Positions 3,427-17,698 of a DNA stretch of 64,000 nt are shown one piece after another. Each line of letters opens with the position of its first letter. Position 1 is the stretch's first letter. This stretch comes from a virus: IMG/VR virus record IMGVR_UViG_3300032307_000516, positions 1 through 64,000 of that record; one strand, written 5' to 3'. The position numbers and the translations under genes are program-made. The notes beneath the pieces were generated by a model. The model was not told the DNA's origin and did no database searches. It saw only the letters and a list, made by a program, of their open reading frames with translations.

Positions 3427-3447
3427 TAATATTAGGATATATAAGTT

Positions 3448-5198: not shown

Positions 5199-5207
5199 AA
5201 CTTTTAT

Positions 5208-5246
5208 TATATTTGCAGATAAATAATAAAAACACGTTCTTTAACA
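5208..5246 (+). promoter_or_regulatory. Bacteroidota-type -7 promoter element plus boxA-like antitermination site
   Basis: TATATTTG at 5208-5215; CGTTCTTTAACA at 5235-5246. Confidence 0.65.
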
Positions 5247-5720: not shown

Positions 5721-7367
5721 ATGTCAAGACTAGGCGAATTTGCTGACAAAAAAACAGCAATGCAAATTTTACAAAACTCCACTTACGGAGCACTAGGAGT
5801 AGAGAACTTCATGGGAGGGATATCTTACAGCTTATCACCTCTAAACACATTAAAGATTGTTGCTGCTTCTTCAATCTTTGGAGAACCACAATATTATAGA
5901 GATGGATTAGGTGCTCCTAGTAACCTTAGCACTATCTTGGACTATTCTATATTAGCTCCGATGTTCAAAGCAGAATCTGGAGCTTTAAAAGATAATCTGA
6001 GTGCTGTAGATATCTTCGAAGAAGCCATACAGGCAGCTTTAGACTTCGACTTTAAAGCAACATTGGATTTAGCTTTAGAACTCCGTAACGAGTACTATAT
6101 GCGTCTAAATCCAGCTGTAATATTTGTTAAAGCAAGTATGCACGAAGGTCGTCAGGAGTTCAACGAGAAAAATCCTGGGTACATGAAGATGATAGGTAAA
6201 GCTATTGCTCTTAGACCTGATGATTTAACAAATCAGTTCGAATACTATATGTATAAGAACGGAGGTAAAAAAGGTCTTTCATCTTTGGTGAAAAGAACTT
6301 GGGCAGAAAGACTTGCAGAATTCTCGCGTTACCAATTGAACAAATACAAGGGTAAAAGATTAATCGACCTTGTTCGTATCTCTCACGCTAAAAGTGAAGA
6401 TATTAATGAGCTAATGACAACTGGTACATTAAAAGTAGAAGAGTCAGAAAAAACATGGGAGATCTTAAGATCAGAAAAAAAATCATGGGAAGAGATTGTA
6501 AACACTATCTCAATCCCACATATGGCTCTTTTGAGAAACCTTAGAGGTATTTTTACTGAAGTCGAAGATCCTACACTTACTGCAAGAATTTTAACTCAGT
6601 TAAAAGGCGGTGTTATAAAAGGAAAACAATTCCCTTTTAGATATTGGTCAGCTTATAAAGCTGTATCCAATTCACAGATCCACCACAAACAACTTGTTTT
6701 GGATACTCTTGAAGAATGTTTAGACATCTCTGTAGAGAATATGCCTAAATTAAAAGGTAAAACGGTTTGTCTTTCTGATAACTCAGGATCTGCATGGGGT
6801 GCTTTCAATAGCGAATATGGATCAGTTACTGTAGCAGAGATTGCTAACTTGTCTTCATTAATTACATCACTACAATCTGATTCAGGAGAAGTTGGTGTAT
6901 TTGGGGATGATCTTTCATTGAAAGGAGTATCTAAAAGAAATGGCCTTCTTACACAATTAGAAGAAACTTCTAAAAGAGGTAGAGCTCAAGGAGGTGGTAC
7001 AGAAAATGGAATTTGGGTATTCTTTGATGAAGCCATCAAAAATAAAGTCCATTACGACAACATCTTTATCTATTCAGATATGCAAGCAGGTCACGGTAAT
7101 CTTTATGGACACGGACACACAGTAGGTAAAACTAAATTTGTCCACCCAAGAAAAGGCGGAACATACGTAGACGTACTTGCTATGGCTCAGGAATACAGAG
7201 ATAAAGTTAATCCTAAGGTTAATTTATTTACAGTTCAAGTAGGAGGTTACAACAACAGTGTTCTTCCTGAGGCTCTTTACAGAGGAGCAATATTAGCTGG
7301 TTGGACTGGTAAAGAACCTGTATTTGCTAAAGCAATTATAGACATTTGGGATTCAGTAGAAGCCTAA
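5721..7367 (+). CDS. rsr: TROVE-domain Ro60-like RNA-binding protein with C-terminal vWA domain
   Basis: Motifs ALLRNLR, QFPFRYWSAY, MIDAS-like DNSGS and IFIYSDMQ; 548 aa. Confidence 0.92.
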   Translation: MSRLGEFADKKTAMQILQNSTYGALGVENFMGGISYSLSPLNTLKIVAASSIFGEPQYYRDGLGAPSNLSTILDYSILAPMFKAESGALKDNLSAVDIFEEAIQAALDFDFKATLDLALELRNEYYMRLNPAVIFVKASMHEGRQEFNEKNPGYMKMIGKAIALRPDDLTNQFEYYMYKNGGKKGLSSLVKRTWAERLAEFSRYQLNKYKGKRLIDLVRISHAKSEDINELMTTGTLKVEESEKTWEILRSEKKSWEEIVNTISIPHMALLRNLRGIFTEVEDPTLTARILTQLKGGVIKGKQFPFRYWSAYKAVSNSQIHHKQLVLDTLEECLDISVENMPKLKGKTVCLSDNSGSAWGAFNSEYGSVTVAEIANLSSLITSLQSDSGEVGVFGDDLSLKGVSKRNGLLTQLEETSKRGRAQGGGTENGIWVFFDEAIKNKVHYDNIFIYSDMQAGHGNLYGHGHTVGKTKFVHPRKGGTYVDVLAMAQEYRDKVNPKVNLFTVQVGGYNNSVLPEALYRGAILAGWTGKEPVFAKAIIDIWDSVEA

Positions 7368-7909: not shown

Positions 7910-8260
7910 ATGAAACATCTAAGAATTTACGAACAATATGCAGAGGAAGTTATGCCAACGGAAGACACTGCAACTGATGTTCATTTCGAAACTGAAACTA
8001 CTGACTTTAAACCTACTGACGGAAATAGCGAAGGTAACTATATTGTTACTTTTCAAAATGCAGAAGGTGAAGATACAACAATAGAAATTGCTGGCGCTTC
8101 TGAGCCAGAATATGTTGGAAGTTCAATGGTAAGCAATATCGAGATGATCGAAGATTCAAGCTCTGACGGAAAAAAATATTCAATCGTTGGATATTACGAT
8201 GAAGTGCCTGGTCAAGACGGTGAATATGAGCTTAAAAAAGTACTAGTAGAAGAAATATAA
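7910..8260 (+). CDS. Acidic hypothetical protein with capsid-targeting-like N-terminus
   Basis: Starts MKHLRIYEQY; GATATATA at 7889. Confidence 0.6.
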   Translation: MKHLRIYEQYAEEVMPTEDTATDVHFETETTDFKPTDGNSEGNYIVTFQNAEGEDTTIEIAGASEPEYVGSSMVSNIEMIEDSSSDGKKYSIVGYYDEVPGQDGEYELKKVLVEEI

Positions 8261-8262
8261 TC

Positions 8263-8544
8263 ATGTCAATCAGAGTCTATTCAGGATACGATGAATTTAA
8301 GTTCGAGGAAGAAGAAATCTGCGAATATTTAGAATCCGATTTCTCAGATTCAAACGATGATGATGAATCAGATGATGTATTTTTTTATACTGAATCTAAA
8401 ATAGATTTTAGAGACGATGCTGATTTTTATATAATCTGTGATACAGAGGACGAGGAGACAGCAGAGGATATAGCTTCTTATTTAGGTAAGGCTAAAAAAA
8501 TAAATTTAGAAGATTTTAGGAAATCATTTTTTTATATAAGATAA
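8263..8544 (+). CDS. Acidic hypothetical protein
   Basis: 93-aa ORF directly after the upstream gene. Confidence 0.55.
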   Translation: MSIRVYSGYDEFKFEEEEICEYLESDFSDSNDDDESDDVFFYTESKIDFRDDADFYIICDTEDEETAEDIASYLGKAKKINLEDFRKSFFYIR

Positions 8545-8594
8545 AATATCTATATTTGTGAAACAAAACAACAAATAAGATATATAAAGTTTAA

Positions 8595-8654
8595 ATGAAA
8601 ACAATACTTAACATATTACCTTCAATATTAAGACCGTCGATAAGACGATCCTAA
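8595..8654 (+). CDS. Attenuator leader peptide 1 (MKTILNILPSILRPSIRRS)
   Basis: Rich in ATA, TTA, AGA, CCN and TCN codons; the stop codon overlaps the antiterminator strand. Confidence 0.8.
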   Translation: MKTILNILPSILRPSIRRS

Positions 8655-8732
8655 AGGTCCTGTGTTAATAAAAAATAATCATTAACTAAACCGGGACCTT
8701 TAAAAGTCTCGGTTTTTTTATGTTCTTTGACA
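8652..8732 (+). promoter_or_regulatory. Attenuator 1: antiterminator/terminator switch plus boxA
   Basis: TAAAGGTCCTG (8652-62) pairs with CGGGACCTTTA (8692-8702), competing with terminator AAACCGGGAC/GTCTCGGTTT plus T-run; TGTTCTTTGACA at 8721. Confidence 0.8.
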
Positions 8733-8749
8733 TGTTGGATTATCAAATT

Positions 8750-8836
8750 GGAGAGGTGGCAGAGCCTGGTTTATTGCACCGGTCTTGAAAACCGACGTAG
8801 TGAAAGCTACCGGGGGTTCGAATCCCTCCCTCTCCG
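8750..8836 (+). tRNA. tRNA-Ser(TGA)
   Basis: Cloverleaf, loop CTTGAAA, long variable arm. Confidence 0.95.
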
Positions 8837-8841
8837 CATTT

Positions 8842-8915
8842 GGTCCGCTAGCTCAGCTGGATAGAGCAACTGCCTTCTAAGCAGTAGGTCTCAGGTTCGA
8901 ATCCTGAGCGGATCA
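8842..8915 (+). tRNA. tRNA-Arg(TCT)
   Basis: Cloverleaf, loop CTTCTAA. Confidence 0.95.
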
Positions 8916-9082
8916 CACAAATCCCTCTGCCTAGCGCTGGGTATGGATCGAAGATAGAATATGCCTCTACACCGTAGACAGGTAGGATACCTCGGTATTC
9001 TTTAATGATATGCACACTTATTCTCCAAATCGTTGGTTGGCACAGTTTGTATGTTCTGGTGATACTTAAAGACATACAATTT

Positions 9083-9155
9083 CGGGATGTAGATCAGTTG
9101 GTAGATCGCCTGGTTTGGGACCAGGAGGCCCCAGGTTCGAGTCCTGGTATCCCGA
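9083..9155 (+). tRNA. tRNA-Pro(TGG)
   Basis: Cloverleaf, loop TTTGGGA, C1:G72. Confidence 0.95.
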
Positions 9156-9158
9156 CTA

Positions 9159-9221
9159 CGGAGGCTGTAAAGTCAAACAGTGAAGAATTTAAAGGATGAC
9201 ATCTTTAAATCCCTCCGACCA
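9159..9221 (+). ncRNA. CCA-ended tRNA-like mini-RNA with Pro-like acceptor end
   Basis: CGGAGG/CCTCCG-A-CCA closing two hairpins. Confidence 0.5.
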
Positions 9222-9222
9222 T

Positions 9223-9296
9223 AGAGGCGTAGCTCAATTGGTTAGAGCACATGCCTTATACGCATGCGGTCACGAGTTCGACTCTCGTCGTCTCTA
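9223..9296 (+). tRNA. tRNA-Ile(TAT)
   Basis: Cloverleaf, CATGC-CTTATAC-GCATG. Confidence 0.9.
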
Positions 9297-9300
9297 CTTA

Positions 9301-9374
9301 GGTCCCTTAGCTCAGTAGGTTAGAGCAACTGACTCATAATCAGTAGGTCCACGGTTCGAGCCCGTGAGGGACCA
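9301..9374 (+). tRNA. tRNA(CAT), probably Ile2 (lysidine type)
   Basis: Cloverleaf, loop CTCATAA, ileX-like acceptor GGTCCCT. Initiator and elongator Met tRNAs are found elsewhere in the window. Confidence 0.8.
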
Positions 9375-9465
9375 CAAAGATACGGATGAGATTTCTAAAT
9401 CTCCTACTTACTTATGAAAAGAAGGATTCCGTAACTAATACCATATAGTAGTGATGGTATTGTCT

Positions 9466-9548
9466 GCCCGGATGTTGAAATAGGTAGACAAGACGGACTT
9501 AAAATCCGTTGGCCATTGGTCGTGAGGGTTCAAGTCCCTCTCCGGGTA
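9466..9548 (+). tRNA. tRNA-Leu(TAA)
   Basis: Cloverleaf, loop CTTAAAA, variable arm. Confidence 0.95.
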
Positions 9549-9553
9549 CAAAT

Positions 9554-9660
9554 ATAATAGTGGCAGAGAGGCTTAATGCTGAGCATACATAGAGTCTGGG
9601 AATGTGGTATGTATGATACCTATACACGGGGACTCGCAGGTTCGAATCCTGTCTATTATA
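9554..9660 (+). ncRNA. Non-canonical tRNA-like RNA with expanded anticodon arm
   Basis: Acceptor ATAATAG/CTATTAT, D-arm, T-arm GCAGG-TTCGAAT-CCTGT; an 8-bp CATACATA/TATGTATG arm with 16-nt loop. Confidence 0.6.
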
Positions 9661-9663
9661 TAT

Positions 9664-9768
9664 ATAGGAGTGGCGGAAGCGTGATCTTTGCAAAGGTCCG
9701 ATAGATAGACGACAGGGTGTCATACCCGAGAATGAAAGTTCATATTGGTGCAAGTCCAATCTCCTGTA
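9664..9768 (+). ncRNA. Non-canonical tRNA-like RNA with D-loop insertion
   Basis: Acceptor ATAGGAG/CTCCTGT, T-arm ATTGG-TGCAAGT-CCAAT, GAAA-capped variable arm, extra hairpin in the D-loop. Confidence 0.55.
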
Positions 9769-9792
9769 CTTTTTTGATATATATAAAGAATC

Positions 9793-10164
9793 ATGAGTGA
9801 ACATATTAAGATATCAGGAATGGGTATAGAAATATACAAAAATGATATACCAGGTGTAAGATGGAATAAAGCTCAGTCTTTTGCTCAGATTCTTGGAGAT
9901 GGATGGAGATTACCAACTTTAGAAGAACTTGCTTTAATAAGATCAATAAGAAATATAGGTGATATAGGAAGATTTCCTGTAGAATATTCGGATTTTTCCG
10001 ATTCATATTACTGGAGTAACGAAGAACGCGAATTTACTACTAAAAAAATGATGGGAAGTAGTCTTAAAAGTACCTATGCTTACTTTTTTGATATGGCTGA
10101 AGGAACTTCTTCACACAATAAAAAGTCATACGAGCTTAGGGCTAGATTTGTTAGAGATATATAA
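9793..10164 (+). CDS. DUF1566/Lcl C-terminal-like domain protein
   Basis: GWRLPTLEEL and YYWS motifs. Confidence 0.75.
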   Translation: MSEHIKISGMGIEIYKNDIPGVRWNKAQSFAQILGDGWRLPTLEELALIRSIRNIGDIGRFPVEYSDFSDSYYWSNEEREFTTKKMMGSSLKSTYAYFFDMAEGTSSHNKKSYELRARFVRDI

Positions 10165-10167
10165 ATC

Positions 10168-10944
10168 ATGCCAACAACAAGAGCATTTGCATATAATCCA
10201 GCACAAGCAACAATTTCTGGAACTACAAATATAGGTACATTATGTGTAGGTGTATCTGCTTTAAATTACGGAGGAAATCCTGGTGGATTAACTTGGTGGA
10301 TGGGTCCGGACGAGGATAATTCTTATGTTATAGCTAAGGATGTGCCAACAGCAGACTTCCCTACTCCAGTAGGTAATGTTGGTAATGTACAATTTTGGAG
10401 ATGTTCTAACAACAGCTCAGAATTCACTAATCTTGTTACATTAATAAGTGGTACTACACAAGCATCTGCTTCTGCTGCTCAATCGTGGCTATCAACAAAT
10501 AATTATTGGACTAATTACACTAGCGGAGTAACTTTCTCACAACCTTTTGTAAATGGTACTGCACCAACAAATGCAGTAGAAACTGCTTGGAATACATTTA
10601 GAGCATCTTTAACAGGTTCTTATACACAATTTGTTGTATCTAATTCATTAGGGTTTAGTTTAACAGTAAGTCATGCTACTTCAGTACAGACTTTGGCAAA
10701 TGCACTAAGAAATGCAACAAATAATACCTCGGTAACTATAAACAGCGTAGTTTGGAGAGTAGGAACAGGATGTGGAACTCCTAAAATAGGTGGGGTTGCT
10801 GTTGAATTTTCCAACGTAGCAAGCTGTAGTTCATCAAGTACTATAGCATTTAGACCTATGATTAATAACTTAAACTGGGGAGGTATGGGTACAGGATCTA
10901 CTGTAGGACAGGCTTCACAAACAATGACACTAACATTTAGCTAA
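10168..10944 (+). CDS. Hypothetical Thr/Ser/Gly-rich virion-type protein
   Basis: 258-aa ORF with late-type motif upstream. Confidence 0.6.
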   Translation: MPTTRAFAYNPAQATISGTTNIGTLCVGVSALNYGGNPGGLTWWMGPDEDNSYVIAKDVPTADFPTPVGNVGNVQFWRCSNNSSEFTNLVTLISGTTQASASAAQSWLSTNNYWTNYTSGVTFSQPFVNGTAPTNAVETAWNTFRASLTGSYTQFVVSNSLGFSLTVSHATSVQTLANALRNATNNTSVTINSVVWRVGTGCGTPKIGGVAVEFSNVASCSSSSTIAFRPMINNLNWGGMGTGSTVGQASQTMTLTFS

Positions 10945-11096
10945 TGGAAACTTATAGAATAATAGACTTAAGAGTAACCCCAAATGAAATAGTACCAGGT
11001 AAGGAATCTGTTACTTTAGAAGAGGGACAATTATGGATAGACGAGAACGGAGGAGATTGTCCATTGTGCGACTATACGCTATTAATCAATGAATAA
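10944..11096 (+). CDS. Small hypothetical protein (50 aa; not in ORF track)
   Basis: TAATG overlap with the upstream gene; METYRIIDLRV...CPLCDYTLLINE. Confidence 0.5.
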   Translation: METYRIIDLRVTPNEIVPGKESVTLEEGQLWIDENGGDCPLCDYTLLINE

Positions 11097-11202
11097 ATGT
11101 AGATTTTTTAAAATAATTTGAAAAAAATACAAAAAACATTTTTTTAAACGGGAACTTTTCCGTACTTTTGGAGTATATAATAAAAAAGGAACAAAACTTT
11201 CA

Positions 11203-11292
11203 ATGAAACACTTTTTAAATATCGAAATGGATCTTCAGCTTCTAAAAGGAGACGAACGTCTTGAGGATACAAATAAGTGTCAGAGGAAATAA
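11203..11292 (+). CDS. Attenuator leader peptide 2 (MKHFLNIEMDLQLLKGDERLEDTNKCQRK)
   Basis: Core enriched in GAR, GAY and CTN codons; the 3' end carries the antiterminator strand. Confidence 0.75.
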   Translation: MKHFLNIEMDLQLLKGDERLEDTNKCQRK

Positions 11293-11362
11293 ATTTATAT
11301 AAAGATATAATTTAAACCTCTGATAACCTCAGAGGTTTTTTTGTTTTATACGCTCTTTGAAA
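11278..11362 (+). promoter_or_regulatory. Attenuator 2: antiterminator/terminator switch plus boxA
   Basis: TGTCAGAGG (11278-86) pairs with CCTCTGATA (11317-25), competing with AAACCTCTGA/TCAGAGGTTT plus T-run; CGCTCTTTGAAA at 11351. Confidence 0.78.
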
Positions 11363-11366
11363 TTAT

Positions 11367-11441
11367 GGTCCCTTCGTCTATCGGTTAGGACGTTAGGTTT
11401 TCATCCTAGAAAGAGGGGTTCGATTCCCCTAGGGACTACCA
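11367..11441 (+). tRNA. tRNA-Glu(TTC)
   Basis: Cloverleaf, loop TTTTCAT, encoded CCA. Confidence 0.92.
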
Positions 11442-11446
11442 GAAAA

Positions 11447-11520
11447 GGTCCTACAGTCCAGTTGGAGTGGACGCCGCCCTGTCACGGCGGAGATCGCGGG
11501 TTCGAGTCCCGCTAGGACCG
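11447..11520 (+). tRNA. tRNA-Asp(GTC)
   Basis: Cloverleaf, loop CTGTCAC, G73. Confidence 0.95.
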
Positions 11521-11618
11521 CTAAAACTTATGCTACATAGAGCAAAGCAGAAAGGTACGATCTGGTACACTATGAAGTACAAATAGAAAGTCAGATCATA
11601 AGTTTTAAAAAATTATAT

Positions 11619-11691
<73 letters not shown>

Positions 11692-11905
11692 CTAATAAGT
11701 TATTTGAAATATTTGCGAAAAGTTCGATGGAATCAATTATAGGTCCAGGGCACAAATCCGTGTGAGGAATCCAATTGATAGAAGAACCTTCTACTGAGTA
11801 ATGCACGTACACGTGATATCCATAGAAAAGTCCTAATAAGTTAAAGGCAAAGGAGTTGATAATACCGGTTAAAAACAACTTTATCTCTTTAGATAGCAAA
11901 TAAAT

Positions 11906-11985
11906 GCCCTCGTGGTGGAATTGGTAGACACGCTAGACTTAGGATCTAGTGCGAAAGCGTGAGAGTTCGAGTCTCTCCGAGGGTA
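11906..11985 (+). tRNA. tRNA-Leu(TAG)
   Basis: Cloverleaf, loop CTTAGGA, variable arm. Confidence 0.95.
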
Positions 11986-11987
11986 CT

Positions 11988-12485
11988 ATGAAAGTTATAT
12001 TTTTAGATTTTGATGGTGTTCTTAATCTTATACCTCAAGGACATGACTATTACGGAGGGATTTTTCACCCTGAATTTGTCGGCAACCTAGGTAGGATTAT
12101 AGAGGAAACTGGAGCAAAACTTGTGATAAGCTCTTCGTGGAGAACTATGGGATTGGAAAGACTTAGAATGATGTGGGAACATCGTTTATATCCAGGAGAC
12201 ATCATAGGAGTTACCCCAGATCTTAGATGGAGGACAAAAAAAGATGCTATGGAATTAAACGAAGTCGAGTACGTTAGAGGAGATGAAATAGAGTCATGGC
12301 TAAATCTACATCCGGAGGTAACTAATTATGTTATACTTGACGATGATGATGATATGTTACAATCACAAAGAATAAACTTTGTAAGAACATCTGATAATAT
12401 TAATCATCCTGATTGCATTGATATAGGATACGGATTAACTAATATTTGTTCTAACGATGCAATTAGAATTTTAAACAGAAAATAA
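11988..12485 (+). CDS. HAD phosphatase, Swiss-army-knife RNA-repair type (HAD_SAK_2-like)
   Basis: IFLDFDGV, ISSSWR, RGDEI and ILDD motifs; ATG at 11988 lies just after the tRNA. Confidence 0.85.
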   Translation: MKVIFLDFDGVLNLIPQGHDYYGGIFHPEFVGNLGRIIEETGAKLVISSSWRTMGLERLRMMWEHRLYPGDIIGVTPDLRWRTKKDAMELNEVEYVRGDEIESWLNLHPEVTNYVILDDDDDMLQSQRINFVRTSDNINHPDCIDIGYGLTNICSNDAIRILNRK

Positions 12486-13054
12486 TGAAAGTTATATTTT
12501 TAGATCATGATGGAGTAATTTGTCTTTCCCAGCAATTTGGTGGGCGTTACAAAAAGCAGACTAAAGCTAGAACTAAGCTTTCTCAAAACGTGATGGATTT
12601 TCCAGTCGATGCTAGATTTGATAACTTCGATAAGAAAGCTATTAAAGTTCTAAACCTAATCTTAGAAGATACTGGAGCTGAAATAGTTGTTTCTTCTGAT
12701 TGGAAGAACTGGGCAAATGTTGAAGAAATGGGCGAATATTACGAACAACAAGGTATAATTAAAAAGCCTATTGATTTTACACCTAGAGAATACACAATGC
12801 CAGAGAAACAAGAATGGCATCCAGACTGGGATTTAGAAGCATCAAGAACTTTAGAAATCCAAGAATGGCTAAAAGATCATCCAGAGGTTACTCATTGGGT
12901 AGCAATAGATGATTTAGATATGAGCTTTAAAGAGGTATCAAATAATAGAAGCGGTACTGGCTGGGGCTTAAAAAACTTTGTACACACCCCAAGTATCACT
13001 GAAGGGATTAAAAAAATGGGTATAAAAGAAAAAGTTTTAAAATTTTTAAAATAA
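12485..13054 (+). CDS. HAD phosphatase, HAD_SAK_2-like paralog
   Basis: IFLDHDGV, VSSDWK, RTLEI and AIDD motifs. Confidence 0.85.
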   Translation: MKVIFLDHDGVICLSQQFGGRYKKQTKARTKLSQNVMDFPVDARFDNFDKKAIKVLNLILEDTGAEIVVSSDWKNWANVEEMGEYYEQQGIIKKPIDFTPREYTMPEKQEWHPDWDLEASRTLEIQEWLKDHPEVTHWVAIDDLDMSFKEVSNNRSGTGWGLKNFVHTPSITEGIKKMGIKEKVLKFLK

Positions 13055-13137
13055 TTTCAAAAAACATTTTTTTATTTAAAAAATATATTGTACTTTTACG
13101 AAACTATTCTGGAAACAGGATATATAATTAAGAAAAA

Positions 13138-13245
13138 ATGAAAAACTGTAGTAAACATAACATCAATCGCATGAACAGTCAAATTAATGGCTGCTATCAA
13201 ACGGTGGCGTTTTGGGCTAAGGGGAAAGAACCCGATCGAAGCTAA
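13138..13245 (+). CDS. Attenuator leader peptide 3 (MKNCSKHNINRMNSQINGCYQTVAFWAKGKEPDRS)
   Basis: Codons 2-30 encode exactly the 16 amino-acid types served by tRNA operon 3. Confidence 0.85.
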   Translation: MKNCSKHNINRMNSQINGCYQTVAFWAKGKEPDRS

Positions 13246-13319
13246 TACAGAAAATCATAATTAGATATTTTGGAAAAGGCTTCGATTTAATCGAAGCCTT
13301 TTTTATTTGTTCTTTGACA
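13234..13319 (+). promoter_or_regulatory. Attenuator 3: antiterminator/terminator switch plus boxA
   Basis: GATCGAAGC (13234-42) pairs with GCTTCGATT (13279-87), competing with AAAAGGCTTCGA/TCGAAGCCTTTT; TGTTCTTTGACA at 13308. Confidence 0.82.
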
Positions 13320-13332
13320 TACTGGAAAAAAT

Positions 13333-13405
13333 GGTACCGTAGCTCAGTTGGTAGAGCACTAGACTGAAAATCTAGGTGTCGCCGGTTCGATTCCGGCCGG
13401 TACCA
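13333..13405 (+). tRNA. tRNA-Phe(GAA)
   Basis: Cloverleaf, loop CTGAAAA. Confidence 0.95.
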
Positions 13406-13476
13406 CAATACTAAACAAGAAATTGTCTCACTAAACTAATCATGTTTAGTATTACAAAAACAAGTTTAGTAACAAT

Positions 13477-13550
13477 GATCTCGTAGCTCAGTTGGCTAGA
13501 GCACCTCACTTTTAATGAGGGAGTCGAGGGTTCGAGCCCCTCCGGGATCA
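13477..13550 (+). tRNA. tRNA-Lys(TTT)
   Basis: Cloverleaf, loop CTTTTAA. Confidence 0.95.
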
Positions 13551-13556
13551 CTACAC

Positions 13557-13629
13557 ACGTCAGTAGCTCAATTGGTAGAGCGTTGGTCTCCAAAACCAAA
13601 GGTCGTAGGTTCGATTCCTACCTGGCGTG
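13557..13629 (+). tRNA. tRNA-Trp(CCA)
   Basis: Cloverleaf, loop CTCCAAA. Confidence 0.95.
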
Positions 13630-13635
13630 CTAAAA

Positions 13636-13708
13636 GGCTCTGTAGTTCAAGGGATTAGAATGGATCACTACGGATGATCTGATCCTGGTTCGAATCCAGG
13701 TGGAGTCT
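13636..13708 (+). tRNA. tRNA-Arg(ACG)
   Basis: Cloverleaf, loop CTACGGA. Confidence 0.9.
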
Positions 13709-13719
13709 CAAACAAATAA

Positions 13720-13791
13720 GGTCGTGTGGTCGAGTGGTTTAGGCACTAGTCTGCAAAACTAGTTATACTGGTTCAATTCCAGTCACGGCCT
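13720..13791 (+). tRNA. tRNA-Cys(GCA)
   Basis: Cloverleaf, loop CTGCAAA, U73. Confidence 0.93.
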
Positions 13792-13925
13792 CAAAAAATG
13801 TAAGAAGTATGAAAATAGTTATTGAAGGAAAAATGAAATCGTCGAATCACAGATTAAATGCGATTCCAGTTAAAATTGAAAGAAAAAATTCTCTAATCAA
13901 AAGAATCAAAAGATTGATTAATAAA

Positions 13926-14011
13926 GGAAAGTAATCTCAGATGGTGACGGGGCTCGCCTGCTAAGCGAAGCGTACCTTAATTGGTATTTGGTTCGATTCC
14001 AATTCTTTCCG
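13926..14011 (+). tRNA. tRNA-Ser(GCT), somewhat divergent
   Basis: Loop CTGCTAA, variable arm, G73; mismatches at stem ends. Confidence 0.8.
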
Positions 14012-14017
14012 CAACAT

Positions 14018-14091
14018 TGACATATAGCTCAGTTGGTTAGAGCGTTGATCTGATACGTCAAAGGTCGAAGGTTCGAATCCTTCTATGTCAA
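14018..14091 (+). tRNA. tRNA-Ile(GAT)
   Basis: Cloverleaf, loop CTGATAC. Confidence 0.93.
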
Positions 14092-14154
14092 CTTAAAAAT
14101 TATAAAAATGAAAAAAGAATTTGACAACTTGTAGGTTTAATTAAACCCTACAAG

Positions 14155-14346
14155 ATGAGTAAAAACACAAACAGAGCAAAACTGAACAAAGCAATGAATG
14201 GTAGAGAACACAGAAACATTTTAAATAATGCTCTTTATCCTCCATACAGTGAATATGATCACACATGGTGGCATGGAAATTTATCCAATCACAAATGGAG
14301 ATCATACAAAACCTGGAAACACAACAGAAAAACAAAATGGAAGTAA
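14155..14346 (+). CDS. Small basic Trp-rich protein inside the tRNA operon
   Basis: 63-aa ORF filling the tRNA spacer, ending KTWKHNRKTKWK. Confidence 0.55.
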   Translation: MSKNTNRAKLNKAMNGREHRNILNNALYPPYSEYDHTWWHGNLSNHKWRSYKTWKHNRKTKWK

Positions 14347-14357
14347 TTCCATTTTAC

Positions 14358-14430
14358 AGTCTCTTAGCTCAGTTGGTAGAGCGCTTGGTTTACATCCAAG
14401 ATGTCGGGGGTTCGAGCCCCTCAGGGACTA
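14358..14430 (+). tRNA. tRNA-Val(TAC)
   Basis: Cloverleaf, loop TTTACAT. Confidence 0.95.
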
Positions 14431-14433
14431 CAA

Positions 14434-14586
14434 GATTAGAAGCGGTAGATTTGGTTACTTCGCACTTTTAATGCCCGTGTCGGGGGTTCGAATCCCTCAT
14501 CTAGCTCCATAGCAGATCCTAGGATTTGTGCTAGATTAGCTCAGCGGTAGAGCAGGTTCCAAACCAAATCTAAATATTCTCTAATC
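14434..14586 (+). ncRNA. Y-RNA-like element 4 containing a circularly permuted tRNA-Lys(TTT)
   Basis: GATTAGA-AGCGG-TAGATTTGGT-TACTTC [tRNA 3' half, CCA, linker, tRNA 5' half] ACCAAATCTA-AATATTC-TCTAATC. Confidence 0.8.
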
Positions 14587-14592
14587 CTAATA

Positions 14593-14680
14593 TTGATTAG
14601 AAGCGGTGAAAGGGGTTACTTCTCAAAACCTTGTAAATTTTTGACCAAAAAACCACCCCGATTAAATATTCTCTAATCAA
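14593..14680 (+). ncRNA. Y-RNA-like element 5 (short form)
   Basis: TTGATTAGA-AGCGG...GGGGT-TACTTC...ACCCC...AATATTC-TCTAATCAA. Confidence 0.7.
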
Positions 14681-14684
14681 AACT

Positions 14685-14756
14685 GGGGATGTAGCTCAGC
14701 GGTAGAGCTCCCGACTGTTAATCGGTAGGTCGCTGGTTCGAATCCAGCCTTCCCCG
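14685..14756 (+). tRNA. tRNA-Asn(GTT)
   Basis: Cloverleaf, loop CTGTTAA, G73. Confidence 0.92.
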
Positions 14757-14792
14757 CAATTCAGAGTGTTGAGCAATTGGTTGCTCAGCTGA
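14756..14792 (+). repeat. Truncated duplicate of the tRNA-Tyr 5' half (direct repeat of 15940-15976)
   Basis: GCAATTCAGAGTGTTGAGCAATTGGTTGCTCAGCTGA versus GCACTTCGGAGTGTTGAGCAATTGGCTGCTCAGCTGA (3 mismatches). Confidence 0.85.
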
Positions 14793-14829
14793 TAAAAGAA
14801 TATATTATATTTAGATTCAATTTTAAGTT

Positions 14830-15765
14830 ATGACAGGATACCATATATACTACCAAACATCAGAAGATGGAGAATATGAGCAAATAAATTATTTAGTTCA
14901 ATTAGCTTCAATTTTAAATTGGAAAAAGAATTATGGCCCCATCAAATTGTATTGTAACCAAAGATTTCTAGAGTCTATATCCAAATATGGAATTGATAAA
15001 GAATATGATTTTATTGATACTGAGTATTTAGAATCAGTTCCATATAAAGATAGTATGTCGACATTTTGGAGCTTTTGCAAAATTTATGTCGCTAAAAAGA
15101 TTGTCGAAACTGAATCGGAATTTTGTATTTTAGATACTGATTTATGGATTCAAGCGCCTGACTTATTAAGTCAAGAACATGATTTAGTTTTACATCACGC
15201 TGAAGCTTATGATCTAAATTATGATCGCAACCCATATCCAGATCCTAGAAATTGGTTAATTGAGTCAGAGATAGAAGAATATGATTGGAATACCTCTCCC
15301 GCAAATTGCGCGATATTGTATTTTAAAAATAAAAGTAAAGAGTTAATAGATGCTTGGTATGAATTTGCAATTAAAATAGTAGAGCGTCATAAAGATAATA
15401 ATACAGAACCGAATTTGCGTTGCGGTACTATTTTTATCGAGCAACGTCTATTACCTACAATAGCAAAGAAAATGGGTATATCAATGACGGTCGTGTCTCC
15501 TTGTACTTATTTAACTTGGATACCAGCTTCATTGGCTGATGGGCGGGAATGGAGGCCTTCATTAGATTATTCAGAACGATCTTTATATATTGGTTCTAAT
15601 ATTAAACATGTATGGGGAGCAAAAAAGTTTTATTCTGAAAATTGGATTCGGGAGTTAATAATTGACAATGCTATGATAGGAATTAATTTAGTTCAGAATC
15701 AAGAAAGAAAGTATTTTAAGTTATACAGTGATGTGCATGAAGTGCATCCAAAAAAATATATTTAA
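14830..15765 (+). CDS. Putative GT-A fold nucleotide-diphospho-sugar transferase
   Basis: FWSFCKIY...ILDTDLW (DxD), NCAIL, IFIEQRLL and HVWG motifs. Confidence 0.65.
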   Translation: MTGYHIYYQTSEDGEYEQINYLVQLASILNWKKNYGPIKLYCNQRFLESISKYGIDKEYDFIDTEYLESVPYKDSMSTFWSFCKIYVAKKIVETESEFCILDTDLWIQAPDLLSQEHDLVLHHAEAYDLNYDRNPYPDPRNWLIESEIEEYDWNTSPANCAILYFKNKSKELIDAWYEFAIKIVERHKDNNTEPNLRCGTIFIEQRLLPTIAKKMGISMTVVSPCTYLTWIPASLADGREWRPSLDYSERSLYIGSNIKHVWGAKKFYSENWIRELIIDNAMIGINLVQNQERKYFKLYSDVHEVHPKKYI

Positions 15766-15851
15766 AATAAATTAAAAAATATTTGGTACTTACAAATGGT
15801 AACACCTTATATTTATATATAGTTAAAAAGAAATAGTTCTTTAAAAATATT

Positions 15852-15940
15852 GGAAGGGTGACAGAGTTGGTCTATCGCGCCGGTCTTGAAAACCGGTGAA
15901 CTCGAAAGGGTTCAGTGAGTTCGAATCCAACCTTCCCTCG
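15852..15940 (+). pseudogene. Degenerate tRNA-Ser(TGA)
   Basis: Anticodon and variable arms intact, but the T-stem and acceptor 3' strand are out of register. Confidence 0.7.
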
Positions 15941-15945
15941 CACTT

Positions 15946-16030
15946 CGGAGTGTTGAGCAATTGGCTGCTCAGCTGACTGTAAATCAGCCGCCTTACGGCA
16001 TTGGGGGTTCGAATCCCTCCGCTCCGACCA
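15946..16030 (+). tRNA. tRNA-Tyr(GTA) with C1:G72
   Basis: CGGAGTG/CGCTCCG-A-CCA, loop CTGTAAA, variable arm. Confidence 0.92.
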
Positions 16031-16033
16031 AAT

Positions 16034-16108
16034 GCAGGTATCGTATAACGGTCATTACTTCTGACTTCCAATCAGAAGATCTCGGTTCGATTCCGGGTAC
16101 CTGCTCCA
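16034..16108 (+). tRNA. tRNA-Gly(TCC)
   Basis: Cloverleaf, loop CTTCCAA, U73, CCA. Confidence 0.93.
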
Positions 16109-16111
16109 AAT

Positions 16112-16151
16112 GCCGGGTGATCCTCTCGTTGAATCACGAGAGCCGGCTCCA
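16112..16151 (+). ncRNA. CCA-ended 12-bp minihelix (tRNA top-half mimic)
   Basis: GCCGG-gtgatc-CTCTCGT-tgaatc-ACGAGAG-CCGGC-T-CCA. Confidence 0.55.
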
Positions 16152-16152
16152 C

Positions 16153-16226
16153 GGGGGATTAGCTCAGTTGGCTAGAGTACTTGCCTTGCACGCAAGGGGT
16201 CATCGGTTCGAATCCGATATCCTCCA
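16153..16226 (+). tRNA. tRNA-Ala(TGC)
   Basis: Cloverleaf, G3:U70, loop CTTGCAC. Confidence 0.95.
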
Positions 16227-16235
16227 CTTTTATAT

Positions 16236-16308
16236 GGCGAGTTAGCTCAGTTGGTAGAGCGTCGGAATCATACCCCGAAGGTCGGCAGTTCGAACCTGCC
16301 ACTCGCTA
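16236..16308 (+). tRNA. tRNA-Met(CAT), elongator
   Basis: Cloverleaf, loop ATCATAC. Confidence 0.88.
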
Positions 16309-16310
16309 CT

Positions 16311-16387
16311 GTGACGGTAGCTCAGTTGGTTAGAGCGTCTGATTGTGGTTCAGAAGGTCGGGGGTTCGATTCCCCTCTGTCACCCCA
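16311..16387 (+). tRNA. tRNA-His(GTG)
   Basis: Cloverleaf, loop TTGTGGT, C73, CCA; the -1 base is T rather than G. Confidence 0.92.
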
Positions 16388-16388
16388 T

Positions 16389-16461
16389 GCCTTTGTAGCT
16401 CAGCTGGTAGAGCGCTTCACTTGTAATGAAGATGTCGCAGGTTCGATCCCTGTCAAAGGCT
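16389..16461 (+). tRNA. tRNA-Thr(TGT)
   Basis: Cloverleaf, loop CTTGTAA. Confidence 0.95.
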
Positions 16462-16467
16462 CTATAA

Positions 16468-16540
16468 TGTCCTGTGGTGTAATTGGCAACACGTCTGATT
16501 TTGGTTCAGAAGAGTCCAGGTTCGAGCCCTGGCGGGACAT
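16468..16540 (+). tRNA. tRNA-Gln(TTG)
   Basis: Cloverleaf, loop TTTTGGT. Confidence 0.93.
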
Positions 16541-16586
16541 CTAAAAAATAAGATAAATACAATAACCAGTATGTAAAAATAGAGCT

Positions 16587-17075
16587 ATGAAAGTGCTAGT
16601 ATTAAATAATGACTTTACGCCTATAAGCGTTACCGATTTTGCCCGGGGATTTAAGCTTGTATATAAAGGTAAAGCAGAAATTTTAGAGCACGATGAACAA
16701 AACCCAATTGTTACTGATCAAAGCACCTACAAAAGACCATCAGTAATTCGACTTCTAAAGTATGTTGTTTTGCCTTTCAAAAAGCTAAAACCTACAAGGG
16801 AAAATATCTTTAAAAGAGATGAGATGAAATGTATCTATTGTGATACATCAAAAAATCTCACAATAGATCACGTTTTTCCCAGATCTAGAGGTGGTGGTAA
16901 CACATGGGAAAATTTAGCTACATGCTGTTCAAAATGTAACGGTAGAAAAGGAGATAGAACCCCGGAAGAAGCCGGAATGAAAATGAGACAAAAGCCATTT
17001 AAACCCGGATATGGCTATTTCATAAGGAATTTTTCCAAAGGAATAGATGTGTGGACAGCATATCTTCCAGATTAA
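16587..17075 (+). CDS. HNH endonuclease (McrA-like)
   Basis: CIYC...LTIDHVFPRSRGGGNTWENLATCCSKCN. Confidence 0.92.
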   Translation: MKVLVLNNDFTPISVTDFARGFKLVYKGKAEILEHDEQNPIVTDQSTYKRPSVIRLLKYVVLPFKKLKPTRENIFKRDEMKCIYCDTSKNLTIDHVFPRSRGGGNTWENLATCCSKCNGRKGDRTPEEAGMKMRQKPFKPGYGYFIRNFSKGIDVWTAYLPD

Positions 17076-17146
17076 TAATTTATAGGAATCGTTTTTTTTA
17101 TTCTAGAAGTTTCTATATTTTTATCATAACCAAAAATGTAAAATAT

Positions 17147-17698
17147 ATGAAATACTATTTAATCATCCTATTATCAGCATTTATAGGTTTTAATTCTTTC
17201 TCACAAAGTGCTATAGAAAAAGAGTTATTAAATCAGCTTAATGTTTATCGTAAAAGCAAAGGTTTAGGACCTATGTCTATCGATGCAAAATTATACGATG
17301 TAGCATTATATCATTCTAGATACTTAGAACAATGCGCAATAGTAGGACATAATACACATTATGATAAATTGCCTCACGATGAGCAGTTCGATATCAAAAA
17401 CCACAAAGAAATGAATACAGATCTTCGTGCTGCGATGTATCCAGATGGAAATATGTACGGGGAAATATCAATGCAATCTTTTTTAATCGATTCGACTGCT
17501 AATGTTACTAAAATATGTAAATCAATAATCGATCAATTCGCAGGGTCTCCAAATCACAAAGAAATCATGGTTACAGATTTTGGTACGGATAAAAGATTAA
17601 AACCAATTGTGGGTATTTCAGTAATACAGGTAAAATGCGATATTCCAGGAAACTATAAGTATGTCGTAAATATAGATTTCGGGGTTATTACTTTTTAA
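17147..17698 (+). CDS. Secreted CAP/SCP-domain protein
   Basis: Signal peptide from ATG 17147; LNVYRKSKGL, HSRY and SPNHKEIM motifs. Confidence 0.75.
   Translation: MKYYLIILLSAFIGFNSFSQSAIEKELLNQLNVYRKSKGLGPMSIDAKLYDVALYHSRYLEQCAIVGHNTHYDKLPHDEQFDIKNHKEMNTDLRAAMYPDGNMYGEISMQSFLIDSTANVTKICKSIIDQFAGSPNHKEIMVTDFGTDKRLKPIVGISVIQVKCDIPGNYKYVVNIDFGVITF

What the first reader, a model, noticed from the sequence alone, without database searches (positions are those of the whole stretch)
13138..13319. Attenuator 3: one leader lists all 16 amino acids of its operon
Codons 2-30 encode K,N,C,S(AGT),H,I(ATC/ATT),R(CGC),M,Q,G,Y,T,V,A,F,W. This is exactly the set of 16 intact downstream tRNAs (Phe, Lys, Trp, Arg-ACG, Cys, Ser-GCT, Ile-GAT, Val, Asn, Tyr, Gly, Ala, Met, His, Thr, Gln). 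No Leu, ATA, AGA or TCN codon occurs. E, P and D appear only in the last codons, next to or within the antiterminator strand, where a stalled ribosome would cover that strand. This would act as a 16-input OR gate.
Basis: partly seen in the sequence, partly recalled or inferred. Interest (0 to 1): 0.92.

Follow-up and report, generated by a model that had tools for sequence, protein, structure and literature searches.

The report
Codon-checklist switch gating phage tRNA genes
A 35-codon mini-gene in front of a lake phage's largest block of tRNA genes is spelled with exactly the amino acids those tRNAs carry and is wired to a switchable transcription stop, so the phage probably makes these tRNAs only when ribosomes read their codons slowly.

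Summary
ORF 13138-13245 (35 codons) uses all 16 codon families of the tRNAs behind it in codons 2-26. It has no Leu, ATA, AGR or TCN codon, and Glu/Pro/Asp come only at codons 31-33. Under the phage's own codon usage this has P about 1.5e-7. It is the only such 34-codon window among 32,344 in six frames. The last codons (13234-13243) pair with the 5' arm of the strongest intrinsic terminator (13271-13305). A ribosome at the stop, or at codons 31-35, masks that strand. Relatives keep the 16-family list while residues move. Across 46-48 unrelated leader/tRNA-array pairs from uncultured phages, leaders list their own operon's tRNAs far above controls, but not in their last six codons. Cultured Cellulophaga phage phi4:1 shows the same three-way design. 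Best reading: a trp/his-style ribosome-mediated attenuator, here multivalent, gating tRNA genes according to tRNA supply. All evidence is computational. I found no paper describing it (nine searches). This scan has reported the same class, and homologues of this leader, on other DNA before. Caveats: Ser-GCT is a sub-threshold call, a Ser-TGA-like copy and a 1.1-kb insert interrupt the operon, and each sense input has few codons.

The parts
13091..13098 (+). Promoter-like -7 box (TACTTTTA here; TACTTTTG or TACATTTG in relatives), about 40 bases before the leader's ATG
   Evidence: Read and in the alignment. Exact TAnnTTTG boxes lie at the same distance before leaders 1 and 2 (8551 and 11163). 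That this consensus is the Bacteroidota housekeeping -7 box is recalled, not tested.
13138..13245 (+). Leader ORF: 35 sense codons plus TAA
   Evidence: Kept open in 11 distinct relatives, with indels only in multiples of three.
13141..13224 (+). Sensing part, codons 2-29: 16 codon families, all read by operon-3 tRNAs, with no foreign codon
   Evidence: A stall at codon 26 leaves the antiterminator free.
13228..13236 (+). Codons 31-33 (GAA CCC GAT; Glu, Pro, Asp): foreign codons in the non-sensing tail
   Evidence: Codon 31 varies among relatives (E, K, D), as shown.
13234..13243 (+). Region 2: antiterminator strand inside codons 33-35 and the first base of the stop
   Evidence: it pairs with 13278-13287 (10 pairs); standard pairs are kept in 109 of 110 cells across 11 distinct relatives.
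13248..13272 (+). Small spacer hairpin enclosed by the antiterminator
   Evidence: Folds.
13271..13305 (+). Intrinsic terminator (regions 3:4): 16 pairs, loop of 3, T-rich tail
   Evidence: Top-ranked terminator in 8000-17500. dG -19.2 kcal/mol. One compensatory C:G to T:A change among relatives.
13309..13320 (+).
   Evidence: Conserved in the 7 aligned relatives. A 17-base pattern containing it precedes a tRNA array in 47 of 115 IMG/VR pattern hits. Its function was not tested.
13333..14757 (+). Proximal tRNAs: Phe, Lys, Trp, Arg-ACG, Cys, (Ser-GCT 13926-14012, sub-threshold), Ile-GAT, Val, Asn
14758..15850 (+). Insert absent from relatives, with ORF 14830-15765 (weak DUF6734 match)
   Evidence: gaps of 1093 against 4 bases. 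(Pfam E = 2.7e-4, under the cut-off).
15851..15939 (+). Ser-TGA-like copy, probably degenerate
15946..16541 (+). Distal tRNAs: Tyr, Gly, Ala, Met, His, Thr, Gln
8595..8715 (+). Sister unit 1: leader MKTILNILPSILRPSIRRS plus terminator 8688-8715, before Ser-TGA, Arg-TCT, Pro, Ile-TAT, Met, Leu-TAA
   Evidence: 13 of 18 codons, P = 5.4e-6.
11203..11338 (+). Sister unit 2: leader MKHFLNIEMDLQLLKGDERLEDTNKCQRK plus terminator 11314-11338, before Glu, Asp, Met, Leu-TAG
   Evidence: 10 of 27 codons, P = 0.0098.

Best explanation
This is a ribosome-mediated (leader-peptide) transcription attenuator that gates a phage tRNA operon. Transcription starts about 30-35 bases before the ATG, and a ribosome translates the 35-codon leader. 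If every codon is decoded promptly, the ribosome reaches the last codons or the stop and covers region 2 (13234-13243). The terminator 13271-13305 then forms and RNA polymerase stops before tRNA-Phe. If the ribosome waits at any of codons 2 to about 29 because the cognate aminoacyl-tRNA is scarce, region 2 stays free. It pairs with the terminator's 5' arm and polymerase reads on into the tRNA genes. Those codons cover all 16 families decoded by the operon's tRNAs and no others, so shortage of any one of the 16 raises synthesis of the whole set. This is a multivalent, demand-driven feedback on tRNA supply. With no ribosome at all the antiterminator also forms, so the default state is ON. Shown: ORF, codon match, terminator, complementary strand, conservation, and the generality of the design. 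Inferred: translation of the ORF, coupling of transcription to translation, the sensing itself, and the physiological trigger. Candidate triggers are loss of host tRNAs during infection or their cleavage by host defence nucleases.
For: 1. Codon list. 30 of 33 non-Met codons are read by operon-3 tRNAs (phage ORF fraction 0.618, P = 1.9e-4). Only 1 and 2 codons belong to operons 1 and 2. Leaders 1 and 2 favour their own operons instead: 13 of 18, P = 5.4e-6, and 10 of 27, P = 0.0098. Joint chance of full coverage with at most 3 foreign codons is 1.5e-7, and this is the only such window in the 72-kb genome.
2. Structure. The three best terminators of 8000-17500 lie just behind the three leaders. 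The 2:3 helix forms with no ribosome or with a stall 10 codons before the stop. It is lost with a ribosome at the stop or 4 codons before it.
3. Relatives. In 11 distinct sequences the ORF stays open. L007 and L008 differ at many residues and by two 3-base deletions, yet codons 2-27 still hold exactly the 16 amino acids. Changes at positions 10 and 13 (I, T, K) stay inside the set. Terminator pair 9 switches C:G to T:A while region 2 keeps pairing through G.U.
4. Generality. In 299 fetched loci plus this genome there are 117 terminator-then-tRNA sites, 114 of them with a 12-70 codon ORF ending beside the stem. In 48 clusters under 50% identity, 804 of 1525 leader codons match the operon's own tRNAs. 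Permuted operons give 634 +/- 28, z = 6.1, and 0 of 20,000 permutations reach the observed value. Mantel-Haenszel OR is 4.74. 410 of 466 operon families are listed in the leader, against 421 of 686 families without a tRNA. With each locus's own long ORFs as background, 40 of 46 leaders match better (P = 1e-8) and 44 of 46 list more of the operon's families (P = 1e-12).
5. Geometry. The best complement to the terminator's 5' arm ends within -30 to +15 of the stop in 37 of 48 clusters. The last 6 codons match at 0.49 (expectation 0.52) and earlier codons at 0.71, Fisher P = 4.6e-8.
6. Covariation. L029's operon is reduced to Trp, Ile, Phe, Gly, Asp and Gln. All 8 of its leader substitutions go to G, F, I, D, F, Q, W, G.
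7. Cultured phage. Cellulophaga phage phi4:1 has three such leaders that list 7 of 7, 8 of 8 and 5 of 5 families of their own operons. Arg is CGT before Arg-ACG and AGA before Arg-TCT.
Against: There is no experimental evidence. The RNA-library contigs are uninformative. Each family has only 1-5 codons, whereas classical attenuators use runs, so sensitivity per tRNA may be low unless depletion is severe. The 2:3 helix (10 pairs, two of them G.U) is weaker than the terminator (-19.2 kcal/mol). No RNA polymerase pause site or firm 1:2 hairpin was identified: one search pairs 13209-13215 with 13236-13242, but one search does not. In this phage a 1.1-kb insert with an ORF separates the leader from eight of the 16 tRNAs. 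Ser-GCT is a sub-threshold call, and a Ser-TGA-like gene in the operon has no codon in the leader. Some relatives have lost tRNAs while the leader is unchanged: L426, and L018, L020, L039 and L050. Leader 2's match is modest. The family search pattern fixed region 2, which biases the pair counts. The clusters may still share ancestry. Within-genome contrasts and the own-ORF background lessen that concern but do not remove it.
Confidence: 0.75

Rival explanations
1. Same attenuator hardware, but a general gauge of translation. Any slowing of ribosomes (antibiotics, stress, loss of factors) opens it, and the amino-acid variety of the leader has no link to the particular tRNAs downstream.
For: Leader 3 contains 19 of the 20 amino acids overall. 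The default fold without ribosomes is the antiterminator. The Anabaena tRNA array is induced by general translational stress (PMC8421152, passages read).
Against: Specificity argues against it. The three leaders of this phage each prefer their own operon down to the isoacceptor box, as do those of phi4:1 and L172 and L241. The permutation and own-ORF controls agree.
Confidence: 0.1
2. Same attenuator, but the physiological signal is amino-acid starvation (charging) and not the amount of tRNA.
For: Ribosome stalling reports aminoacyl-tRNA, so uncharged tRNA would stall the ribosome as well. This is how the classical trp/his attenuators work (established knowledge, recalled).
Against: Making more tRNA does not relieve an amino-acid shortage. 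The regulated genes are tRNAs, and isoacceptor boxes of one amino acid (Arg, Leu, Ser, Ile) are split between leaders exactly as the tRNA genes are. That split makes sense only for sensing tRNA species.
Confidence: 0.08
3. No regulation. The terminator merely insulates the tRNA operon from upstream transcription, and the ORF is a chance frame or encodes a small protein that acts elsewhere.
For: Short ORFs ending near a terminator are common in AT-rich DNA: 114 of 117 sites have one. Rfam finds no known leader family here.
Against: P is about 1.5e-7 for the codon set. A promoter-like box lies between the upstream gene and the leader. The peptide sequence is not conserved between families, but its composition tracks the tRNAs. 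Region 2 sits at the ORF's end in most families.
Confidence: 0.04
4. Direct RNA-tRNA sensing in the manner of a T-box, without a ribosome. Codon-like triplets in the leader RNA would pair with anticodons.
For: The triplets are complementary to the anticodons of the tRNAs downstream.
Against: The triplets lie in one frame between an ATG and a stop, and that frame is kept through 3-base indels. No T-box match appears in the Rfam search at E up to 1. Sixteen specifier sites in about 80 bases has no structural precedent (recalled).
Confidence: 0.03

Closest known systems
Multivalent leader-peptide attenuators of enterobacterial amino-acid operons (thr leader for Thr+Ile; ilvGMEDA leader for Ile+Leu+Val), and the trp, his, leu and pheA leaders (recalled; the general mechanism is described in PMC3082878 and PMC1183508, passages and abstract seen)
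   Same: A short translated leader whose codons name what the operon supplies. An antiterminator strand at the ORF's end competes with an intrinsic terminator. A stalled ribosome gives readthrough. More than one input is possible.
   Different: The regulated genes are tRNAs, not enzymes. There are 16 inputs, each with 1-5 scattered codons and no runs. Isoacceptor boxes are resolved, not only amino acids. No firm 1:2 hairpin exists, so the default without translation is readthrough. The element is encoded by phages. No Rfam leader family matches this site.
Inducible long tRNA array (trn operon) of Anabaena sp. PCC 7120 (PMC8421152; PMC10272220; passages read)
   Same: A supernumerary, horizontally mobile tRNA array that is kept low and is induced when translation is impaired. 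This is the same demand-driven logic.
   Different: Control there is at the promoter, through direct repeats and the repressor TrcR. In both papers the words 'attenuat', 'leader' and 'terminator' occur 0 times in the main text. There is no codon list.
Cys-rich small ORFs that sense tRNA-Cys cleavage by VapC4 in Mycobacterium tuberculosis, and poly-Cys leaderless ORF attenuators in mycobacteria (seen only as a reference entry and an abstract start)
   Same: Ribosome stalling in a small upstream ORF reports the depletion of a particular tRNA or amino acid and changes expression of the genes downstream.
   Different: One input (Cys). The downstream genes are stress or Cys genes, not the depleted tRNA itself. 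The mechanism was not compared here.
T-box riboswitches (recalled)
   Same: They sense a specific tRNA and switch between a terminator and an antiterminator.
   Different: A T-box binds tRNA directly, without a ribosome, has one specifier codon and controls synthetase or amino-acid genes. There is no T-box match here.

Membership tests
Ribosome-mediated (leader-peptide) transcription attenuator | Short ORF with start and stop between the promoter and the regulated genes | tested here: met
   The frame is conserved in 11 distinct relatives.
Ribosome-mediated (leader-peptide) transcription attenuator | Regulatory codons cognate to what the operon supplies | tested here: met
   Here the codons are cognate to the tRNAs themselves.
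Ribosome-mediated (leader-peptide) transcription attenuator | Intrinsic terminator between the leader and the first regulated gene | tested here: met
   (16 pairs plus T-rich tail). (-19.2 kcal/mol).
Ribosome-mediated (leader-peptide) transcription attenuator | Alternative antiterminator helix whose 5' strand is covered by a ribosome that finishes the leader | tested here: met
   The same placement is seen in 37 of 48 clusters.
Ribosome-mediated (leader-peptide) transcription attenuator | 1:2 pause or anti-antiterminator hairpin that synchronises polymerase and ribosome | tested here: inconclusive
   pairs 13209-13215 with 13236-13242. The constrained folds prefer 2:3 even without a ribosome.
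Ribosome-mediated (leader-peptide) transcription attenuator | Readthrough in vivo responds to translation of the leader | not testable with these tools
   Only contigs of RNA libraries were available.
Ribosome-mediated (leader-peptide) transcription attenuator | Regulated genes encode amino-acid biosynthesis or aminoacyl-tRNA synthetase functions (the classical scope) | tested here: not met
   The genes downstream are tRNAs.
Rfam leader families (Thr_leader, His_leader, Trp_leader and others) | Score at or above the family's gathering score | tested here: not met
   There is no leader-family match at 13100-13330. The only one in 8000-17500 is Thr_leader at 22.9 bits (gathering 55) on leader 1.
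T-box riboswitch | T-box covariance-model match (specifier loop plus T-box sequence) | tested here: not met
   No T-box hit at E up to 1.
boxA/Nus-type processive antitermination site | boxA consensus bound by NusB/NusE ahead of untranslated RNA genes | not tested
The motif at 13309-13320 is conserved and recurs before tRNA arrays.

The most novel reading that the evidence does not exclude
Codon-matched leader attenuators are a general, so far unpublished control layer of phage tRNA arrays. They occur in many unrelated phages of Bacteroidota-like hosts, including cultured Cellulophaga phages. They turn each tRNA block into a closed-loop homeostat, in which the ribosome itself assays every tRNA species the block encodes, isoacceptor by isoacceptor. 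Their main use would be to refill the tRNA pool when host tRNAs are degraded, or are cleaved by anticodon-nuclease defences during infection. The unusual choice of the rarest synonymous codons in leader 3 would then be tuning for sensitivity.
Probability: 0.35. Interest if true: 0.92.

Novelty: new variant of a known kind. Interest (0 to 1): 0.85.

Why it matters
How phages regulate their tRNA genes, and why they carry them at all, is an old open question. A leader that lists the tRNAs it controls would be the first case of tRNA genes governed by ribosome-mediated attenuation. It would also be the most multivalent attenuator known, with 16 inputs, and it would give direct evidence that phages monitor decoding capacity codon by codon. 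It makes the 'tRNA depletion versus codon compensation' debate testable. The codon list predicts exactly which depletions should induce which operon. Cellulophaga baltica with phage phi4:1 offers a cultured system that has the same design.

Tried and rejected
1. I recalled that the E. coli tRNA-Phe genes pheU and pheV might have Phe-rich leaders. I read both loci in K-12. pheU follows a plain promoter region (sequence read) and pheV lies 105 bases after yqgA (annotation). No leader or attenuator is annotated or fits, so I dropped this precedent.
2. Searches of cultured phages with the tRNA region and the upstream gene gave only tRNA-level or weak matches. One search gave the Cellulophaga lead through tRNA-Trp.
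None of its 120 loci has a tRNA within 200 bases downstream. This says nothing about absence in bacteria and did not identify the host.
4. RNA evidence. One search found six RNA runs, each holding about 0.10-0.11 of the sampled words. I laid four of them. One contig of X15 covers 13119-13265, and one of X16 covers 13294-13409 and then 13474-13556. These are contigs, DNA carry-over is possible, and assembly breaks at hairpins are expected. I draw no conclusion on transcription or termination.
5. The sigma-70 consensus scan gave no more promoter-like sites than shuffles.
6. An internal promoter before 15851 was suspected by eye. No exact TAnnTTTG box lies there. The question stays open.
7. Annotated gp076 of phi4:1 looked like a fourth leader. 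By my reading it overlaps a tRNA-Ser(TGA)-like stretch, so I did not count it.
8. Literature. Searches found no account of leader-peptide attenuation of tRNA genes. Passages were read in PMC3082878, PMC2965389, PMC10264068, PMC10272220 and PMC8421152. Subscription journals are not covered.
Full report
OBSERVATION. The window is the first 64 kb of a single 72,049-base contig. It is AT-rich and almost all genes run on the + strand. It carries a T4-type terminase, portal and sheath, so it is a tailed phage. ARAGORN finds 26 tRNAs in three blocks. The ORF at 13138-13245 reads MKNCSKHNINRMNSQINGCYQTVAFWAKGKEPDRS*. Codons 2-30 use only the 16 families Lys, Asn, Cys, Ser-AGY, His, Ile-ATY, Arg-CGN, Met, Gln, Gly, Tyr, Thr, Val, Ala, Phe and Trp, and all 16 are present by codon 26. 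There is no Leu, ATA, AGR or TCN codon. GAA, CCC and GAT are codons 31-33.

The tRNAs downstream are Phe, Lys, Trp, Arg-ACG, Cys, Ile-GAT, Val, Asn, Tyr, Gly, Ala, Met, His, Thr and Gln. A Ser-GCT at 13926-14012 is called by ARAGORN only at a lowered threshold (Rfam 38.3 bits on the tRNA-Sec model). ARAGORN also calls a Ser-TGA at 15851-15939. This copy scores poorly (32.7 bits against 51.5 for the operon-1 copy), and by my reading it has a mismatched T stem.

CHANCE. I used the codon usage of 62 long ORFs of the same genome (19,610 codons). The 16 families make up 0.62 of codons, and several are rare: Arg-CGN 0.004, Cys 0.008, His 0.011, Trp 0.013. The chance that 34 codons hold all 16 is 3.3e-5. 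With at most three foreign codons it is 1.5e-7. For 29 codons with none foreign it is 5.5e-10. None of 17,502 windows of 34 codons within real ORFs reaches 16. Of 32,344 stop-free windows in six frames, four do, and all four overlap this ORF.

The match is specific. 30 of 33 non-Met codons belong to operon 3, against 1 and 2 for operons 1 and 2. Leader 1 (8595-8654) has 13 of 18 codons for operon 1 (P = 5.4e-6), including four ATA, two TTA and two AGA. Leader 2 (11203-11292) has 10 of 27 for operon 2 (P = 0.0098). Together the three leaders divide the genetic code as the three tRNA blocks do.

ANATOMY. The three best intrinsic terminators in 8000-17500 lie directly behind the three leaders. 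For leader 3 the terminator is 13271-13305 (16 pairs, -19.2 kcal/mol). Bases 13234-13243, which are codons 33-35 and the first base of the stop, pair with 13278-13287, the terminator's 5' arm. The two strands enclose a small hairpin.

In constrained folds this antiterminator forms when no ribosome is present and when a ribosome is stalled ten codons before the stop. It is cut to six pairs for a stall six codons before the stop. It is gone for a stall four codons before the stop or at the stop. I took the ribosome to cover about 13 bases 3' of the A-site codon, which is recalled knowledge. So codons 2 to about 29 can sense, and codons 31-35, where Glu, Pro and Asp lie, cannot.

Upstream lies a TACTTTTA box at 13091-13098. 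Relatives have TACTTTTG or TACATTTG there. Exact TAnnTTTG boxes stand at the same distance before leaders 1 and 2. Only 2 of 62 ORFs have a Shine-Dalgarno-like motif. Both features are, from recall, typical of Bacteroidota. Behind the terminator lies the conserved motif GTTCTTTGACAT (13309-13320).

RELATIVES OF THIS LEADER. The upstream gene (12485-13054) has 356 relatives in IMG/VR, of which 80 were fetched. A pattern from the leader found 13 contigs. In 11 distinct sequences the frame is kept. L007 and L008 differ from the window at many residues and by two 3-base deletions: Thr moved to position 12, Met to 22 and Val to 27. Yet codons 2-27 still hold exactly the 16 amino acids, followed by KEPDRS.

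Single changes at positions 10 and 13 go to I, T or K, all inside the set. Codon 31, in the tail, varies among E, K and D. Terminator pair 9 shows a compensatory C:G to T:A change in 5 of 11 sequences, and region 2 keeps pairing there through G.U. The search pattern fixed part of region 2, which biases this count. In relatives Asn and Tyr are 4 bases apart. The 1093-base insert of the window (14758-15850, with an ORF that has a weak DUF6734 match) is therefore secondary, and the 16 tRNAs were originally one array.

A WIDER CLASS. I scanned IMG/VR for the post-terminator motif and pooled the hits with the other loci then fetched. In 299 loci plus this genome there are 117 sites where an intrinsic terminator directly precedes the first tRNA of an array. 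Of these, 114 have a 12-70 codon ATG ORF ending within -60 to +10 of the stem, and there are 80 distinct peptides. The ORF was chosen as the longest one, without regard to its content.

After clustering at under 50% identity (48 clusters), 804 of 1525 leader codons are read by the operon's own tRNAs. With operon sets permuted the count is 634 +/- 28 (maximum 749, and 0 of 20,000 permutations reach 804). The Mantel-Haenszel odds ratio is 4.74. 410 of 466 operon families are listed in their leader, against 421 of 686 families that have no tRNA in the operon.

Phage tRNA sets follow phage codon usage, so I also used each locus's own long ORFs as background. 40 of 46 leaders match better than that background (Wilcoxon P = 1e-8). 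44 of 46 list more of the operon's families than same-length windows of the locus's own ORFs do (P = 1e-12). Fifteen leaders with six or more families, from several lineages (two of them at a cut locus end), list every family of their operon, for example 17 of 17, 16 of 16, 14 of 14 and 13 of 13. Within genomes that carry two or three pairs, each leader prefers its own operon (WIN, L172, L241, L091).

The best complement to the terminator's 5' arm exceeds shuffles (z > 2) in 23 of 48 clusters. It ends within -30 to +15 of the stop in 37 of 48. In 31 complete clusters the last six codons match the operon at 0.49, the level expected from pooled composition (0.52). Earlier codons match at 0.71 (Fisher P = 4.6e-8). 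In L029, whose operon is reduced to Trp, Ile, Phe, Gly, Asp and Gln, all eight substitutions against the family consensus lead to G, F, I, D, F, Q, W, G. Other relatives lost tRNAs without any leader change (L018, L020, L039, L050; L426).

A CULTURED EXAMPLE. tRNA-Trp is 91.5% identical to that of Cellulophaga phages phi4:1 and phi17:2. In phi4:1 (NC_021788; host Cellulophaga baltica) the tRNA array is split into three blocks.

- Block A: leader MKIQRLHLQELEQPIISGGTGV plus a terminator, before Pro, Glu, Gln, His, Leu-TAG, Leu-TAA and Arg-ACG.
- Block B: a frame inside annotated gp075, VQLTKTGITVIDKTKGARAYLGDTVIG if it starts at GTG (the start is uncertain). It precedes Ala, Lys, Ile, Gly, Met, Asp, Thr, Val, Arg-TCT and Met.
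- Block C: leader MKTNYCTYNNSNWSFSYDTGSVCTLGSDGLIG plus a terminator, before Tyr, Ser-GCT, Asn, Trp and Phe.

These leaders list 7 of 7, 8 of 8 and 5 of 5 families of their own operons, with diagonal P values of 5e-3, 2e-4 and 2e-2 and off-diagonal values at or under background. Arg is CGT in leader A (Arg-ACG) and AGA in leader B (Arg-TCT).

MECHANISM. The best reading is a classical ribosome-mediated attenuator turned to a new task. A ribosome that decodes the whole list in time hides region 2, and the terminator forms. A ribosome that waits for any listed aminoacyl-tRNA leaves region 2 free, and polymerase enters the tRNA genes. Without translation the switch is open, which makes sense for genes that restore translation. 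Isoacceptor boxes of Arg, Leu, Ser and Ile are split between leaders as the genes are, so the quantity sensed is most likely the tRNA species and not the amino acid.

Leader 3 also uses the rarest synonymous codons of its four-codon boxes (CGC, GGC, ACG, GTG, GCG, GGG; each 0.05-0.07 of its family; P = 5e-5). This could raise sensitivity or could merely serve RNA structure. That question is open.

WHAT IS NOT SHOWN. Translation of the ORF, coupling to transcription, and any response to tRNA levels are all untested. RNA-library contigs touch the leader, but they cannot show transcript ends. Few codons per input, a weak 2:3 helix, no identified pause site, the insert in this phage, the sub-threshold Ser-GCT and the extra Ser-TGA-like gene are all real caveats.

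KNOWN SYSTEMS AND NOVELTY. Nine literature searches and passages of five papers gave no account of leader-peptide attenuation of tRNA genes. The nearest analogue in logic is the Anabaena trn array, which is induced under translational stress. It is controlled at the promoter by repeats and the repressor TrcR. The nearest in mechanism are the multivalent thr and ilv leaders (recalled). Rfam has no matching family here.

This scan has reported the same class on other genomes since October 2026. It has also reported homologues of this very leader in relatives. Those notes agree with what I found and also report finding no paper. I rate this a new variant of a known kind of switch, of high interest, and supported by sequence statistics and comparative evidence only.

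Noticed in passing
window 13141-13224: Leader 3 uses the rarest synonymous codons of its four-codon boxes (CGC, GGC, ACG, GTG, GCG, GGG; each 0.05-0.07 of its family in phage ORFs). Given the families, P = 5e-5. Leaders 1 and 2 show no such bias. This may tune sensitivity or may be forced by RNA structure.
   Followed up: partly
L434 (Cellulophaga phage phi4:1, NC_021788) 2432-2553, 3392-3530, 5138-5286: This cultured phage has three codon-matched leader-plus-terminator units that divide its tRNA array. Annotated gp075 overlaps the second unit. Annotated gp076 seems to overlap a tRNA-Ser(TGA)-like stretch and not a gene.
   Followed up: yes
window 13309-13320; also 8722-8733 and 11345-11356: The motif GTTCTTTGACAT (GCTCTTTGAAAT after leader 2) lies between each terminator and the first tRNA. 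A 17-base pattern containing it precedes a tRNA array in 47 of 115 IMG/VR pattern hits, many of them without a terminator in front. It may be a boxA-like antitermination or processing site.
   Followed up: partly
window 5721-7367 and 14434-14680: There is a TROVE (Ro60-like) protein (Pfam E = 1.2e-9). Weak Y-RNA-like (YrlA) Rfam matches lie inside tRNA operon 3 (14474-14558, 28.3 bits against gathering 69), beside a sub-threshold tRNA-like stretch at 14444-14506.
   Followed up: no
window 59782-61404 and 61408-63057: Two adjacent genes both match the T4-type portal protein over its full length (Pfam Portal_T4, E = 4e-58 and 2e-61). Tandem portal paralogues are unusual.
   Followed up: no
window 11949-12485 and 12485-13054: Two adjacent paralogue-sized ORFs start right after tRNA-Leu of operon 2. 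The second has 356 relatives in IMG/VR. 33 of the 80 fetched loci carry tRNAs in the fetched flanks, mostly arrays. The family was not scanned against Pfam here.
   Followed up: no
window 14758-15939: A 1.1-kb insert (ORF 14830-15765) plus a degenerate copy of the operon-1 Ser-TGA gene splits operon 3 in this phage only. It looks like a rearrangement that carried in a piece of operon 1's start.
   Followed up: partly
window 823-3426: A large ORF with collagen triple-helix repeats (Pfam E = 8e-33, five stretches), probably a fibre protein.
   Followed up: no
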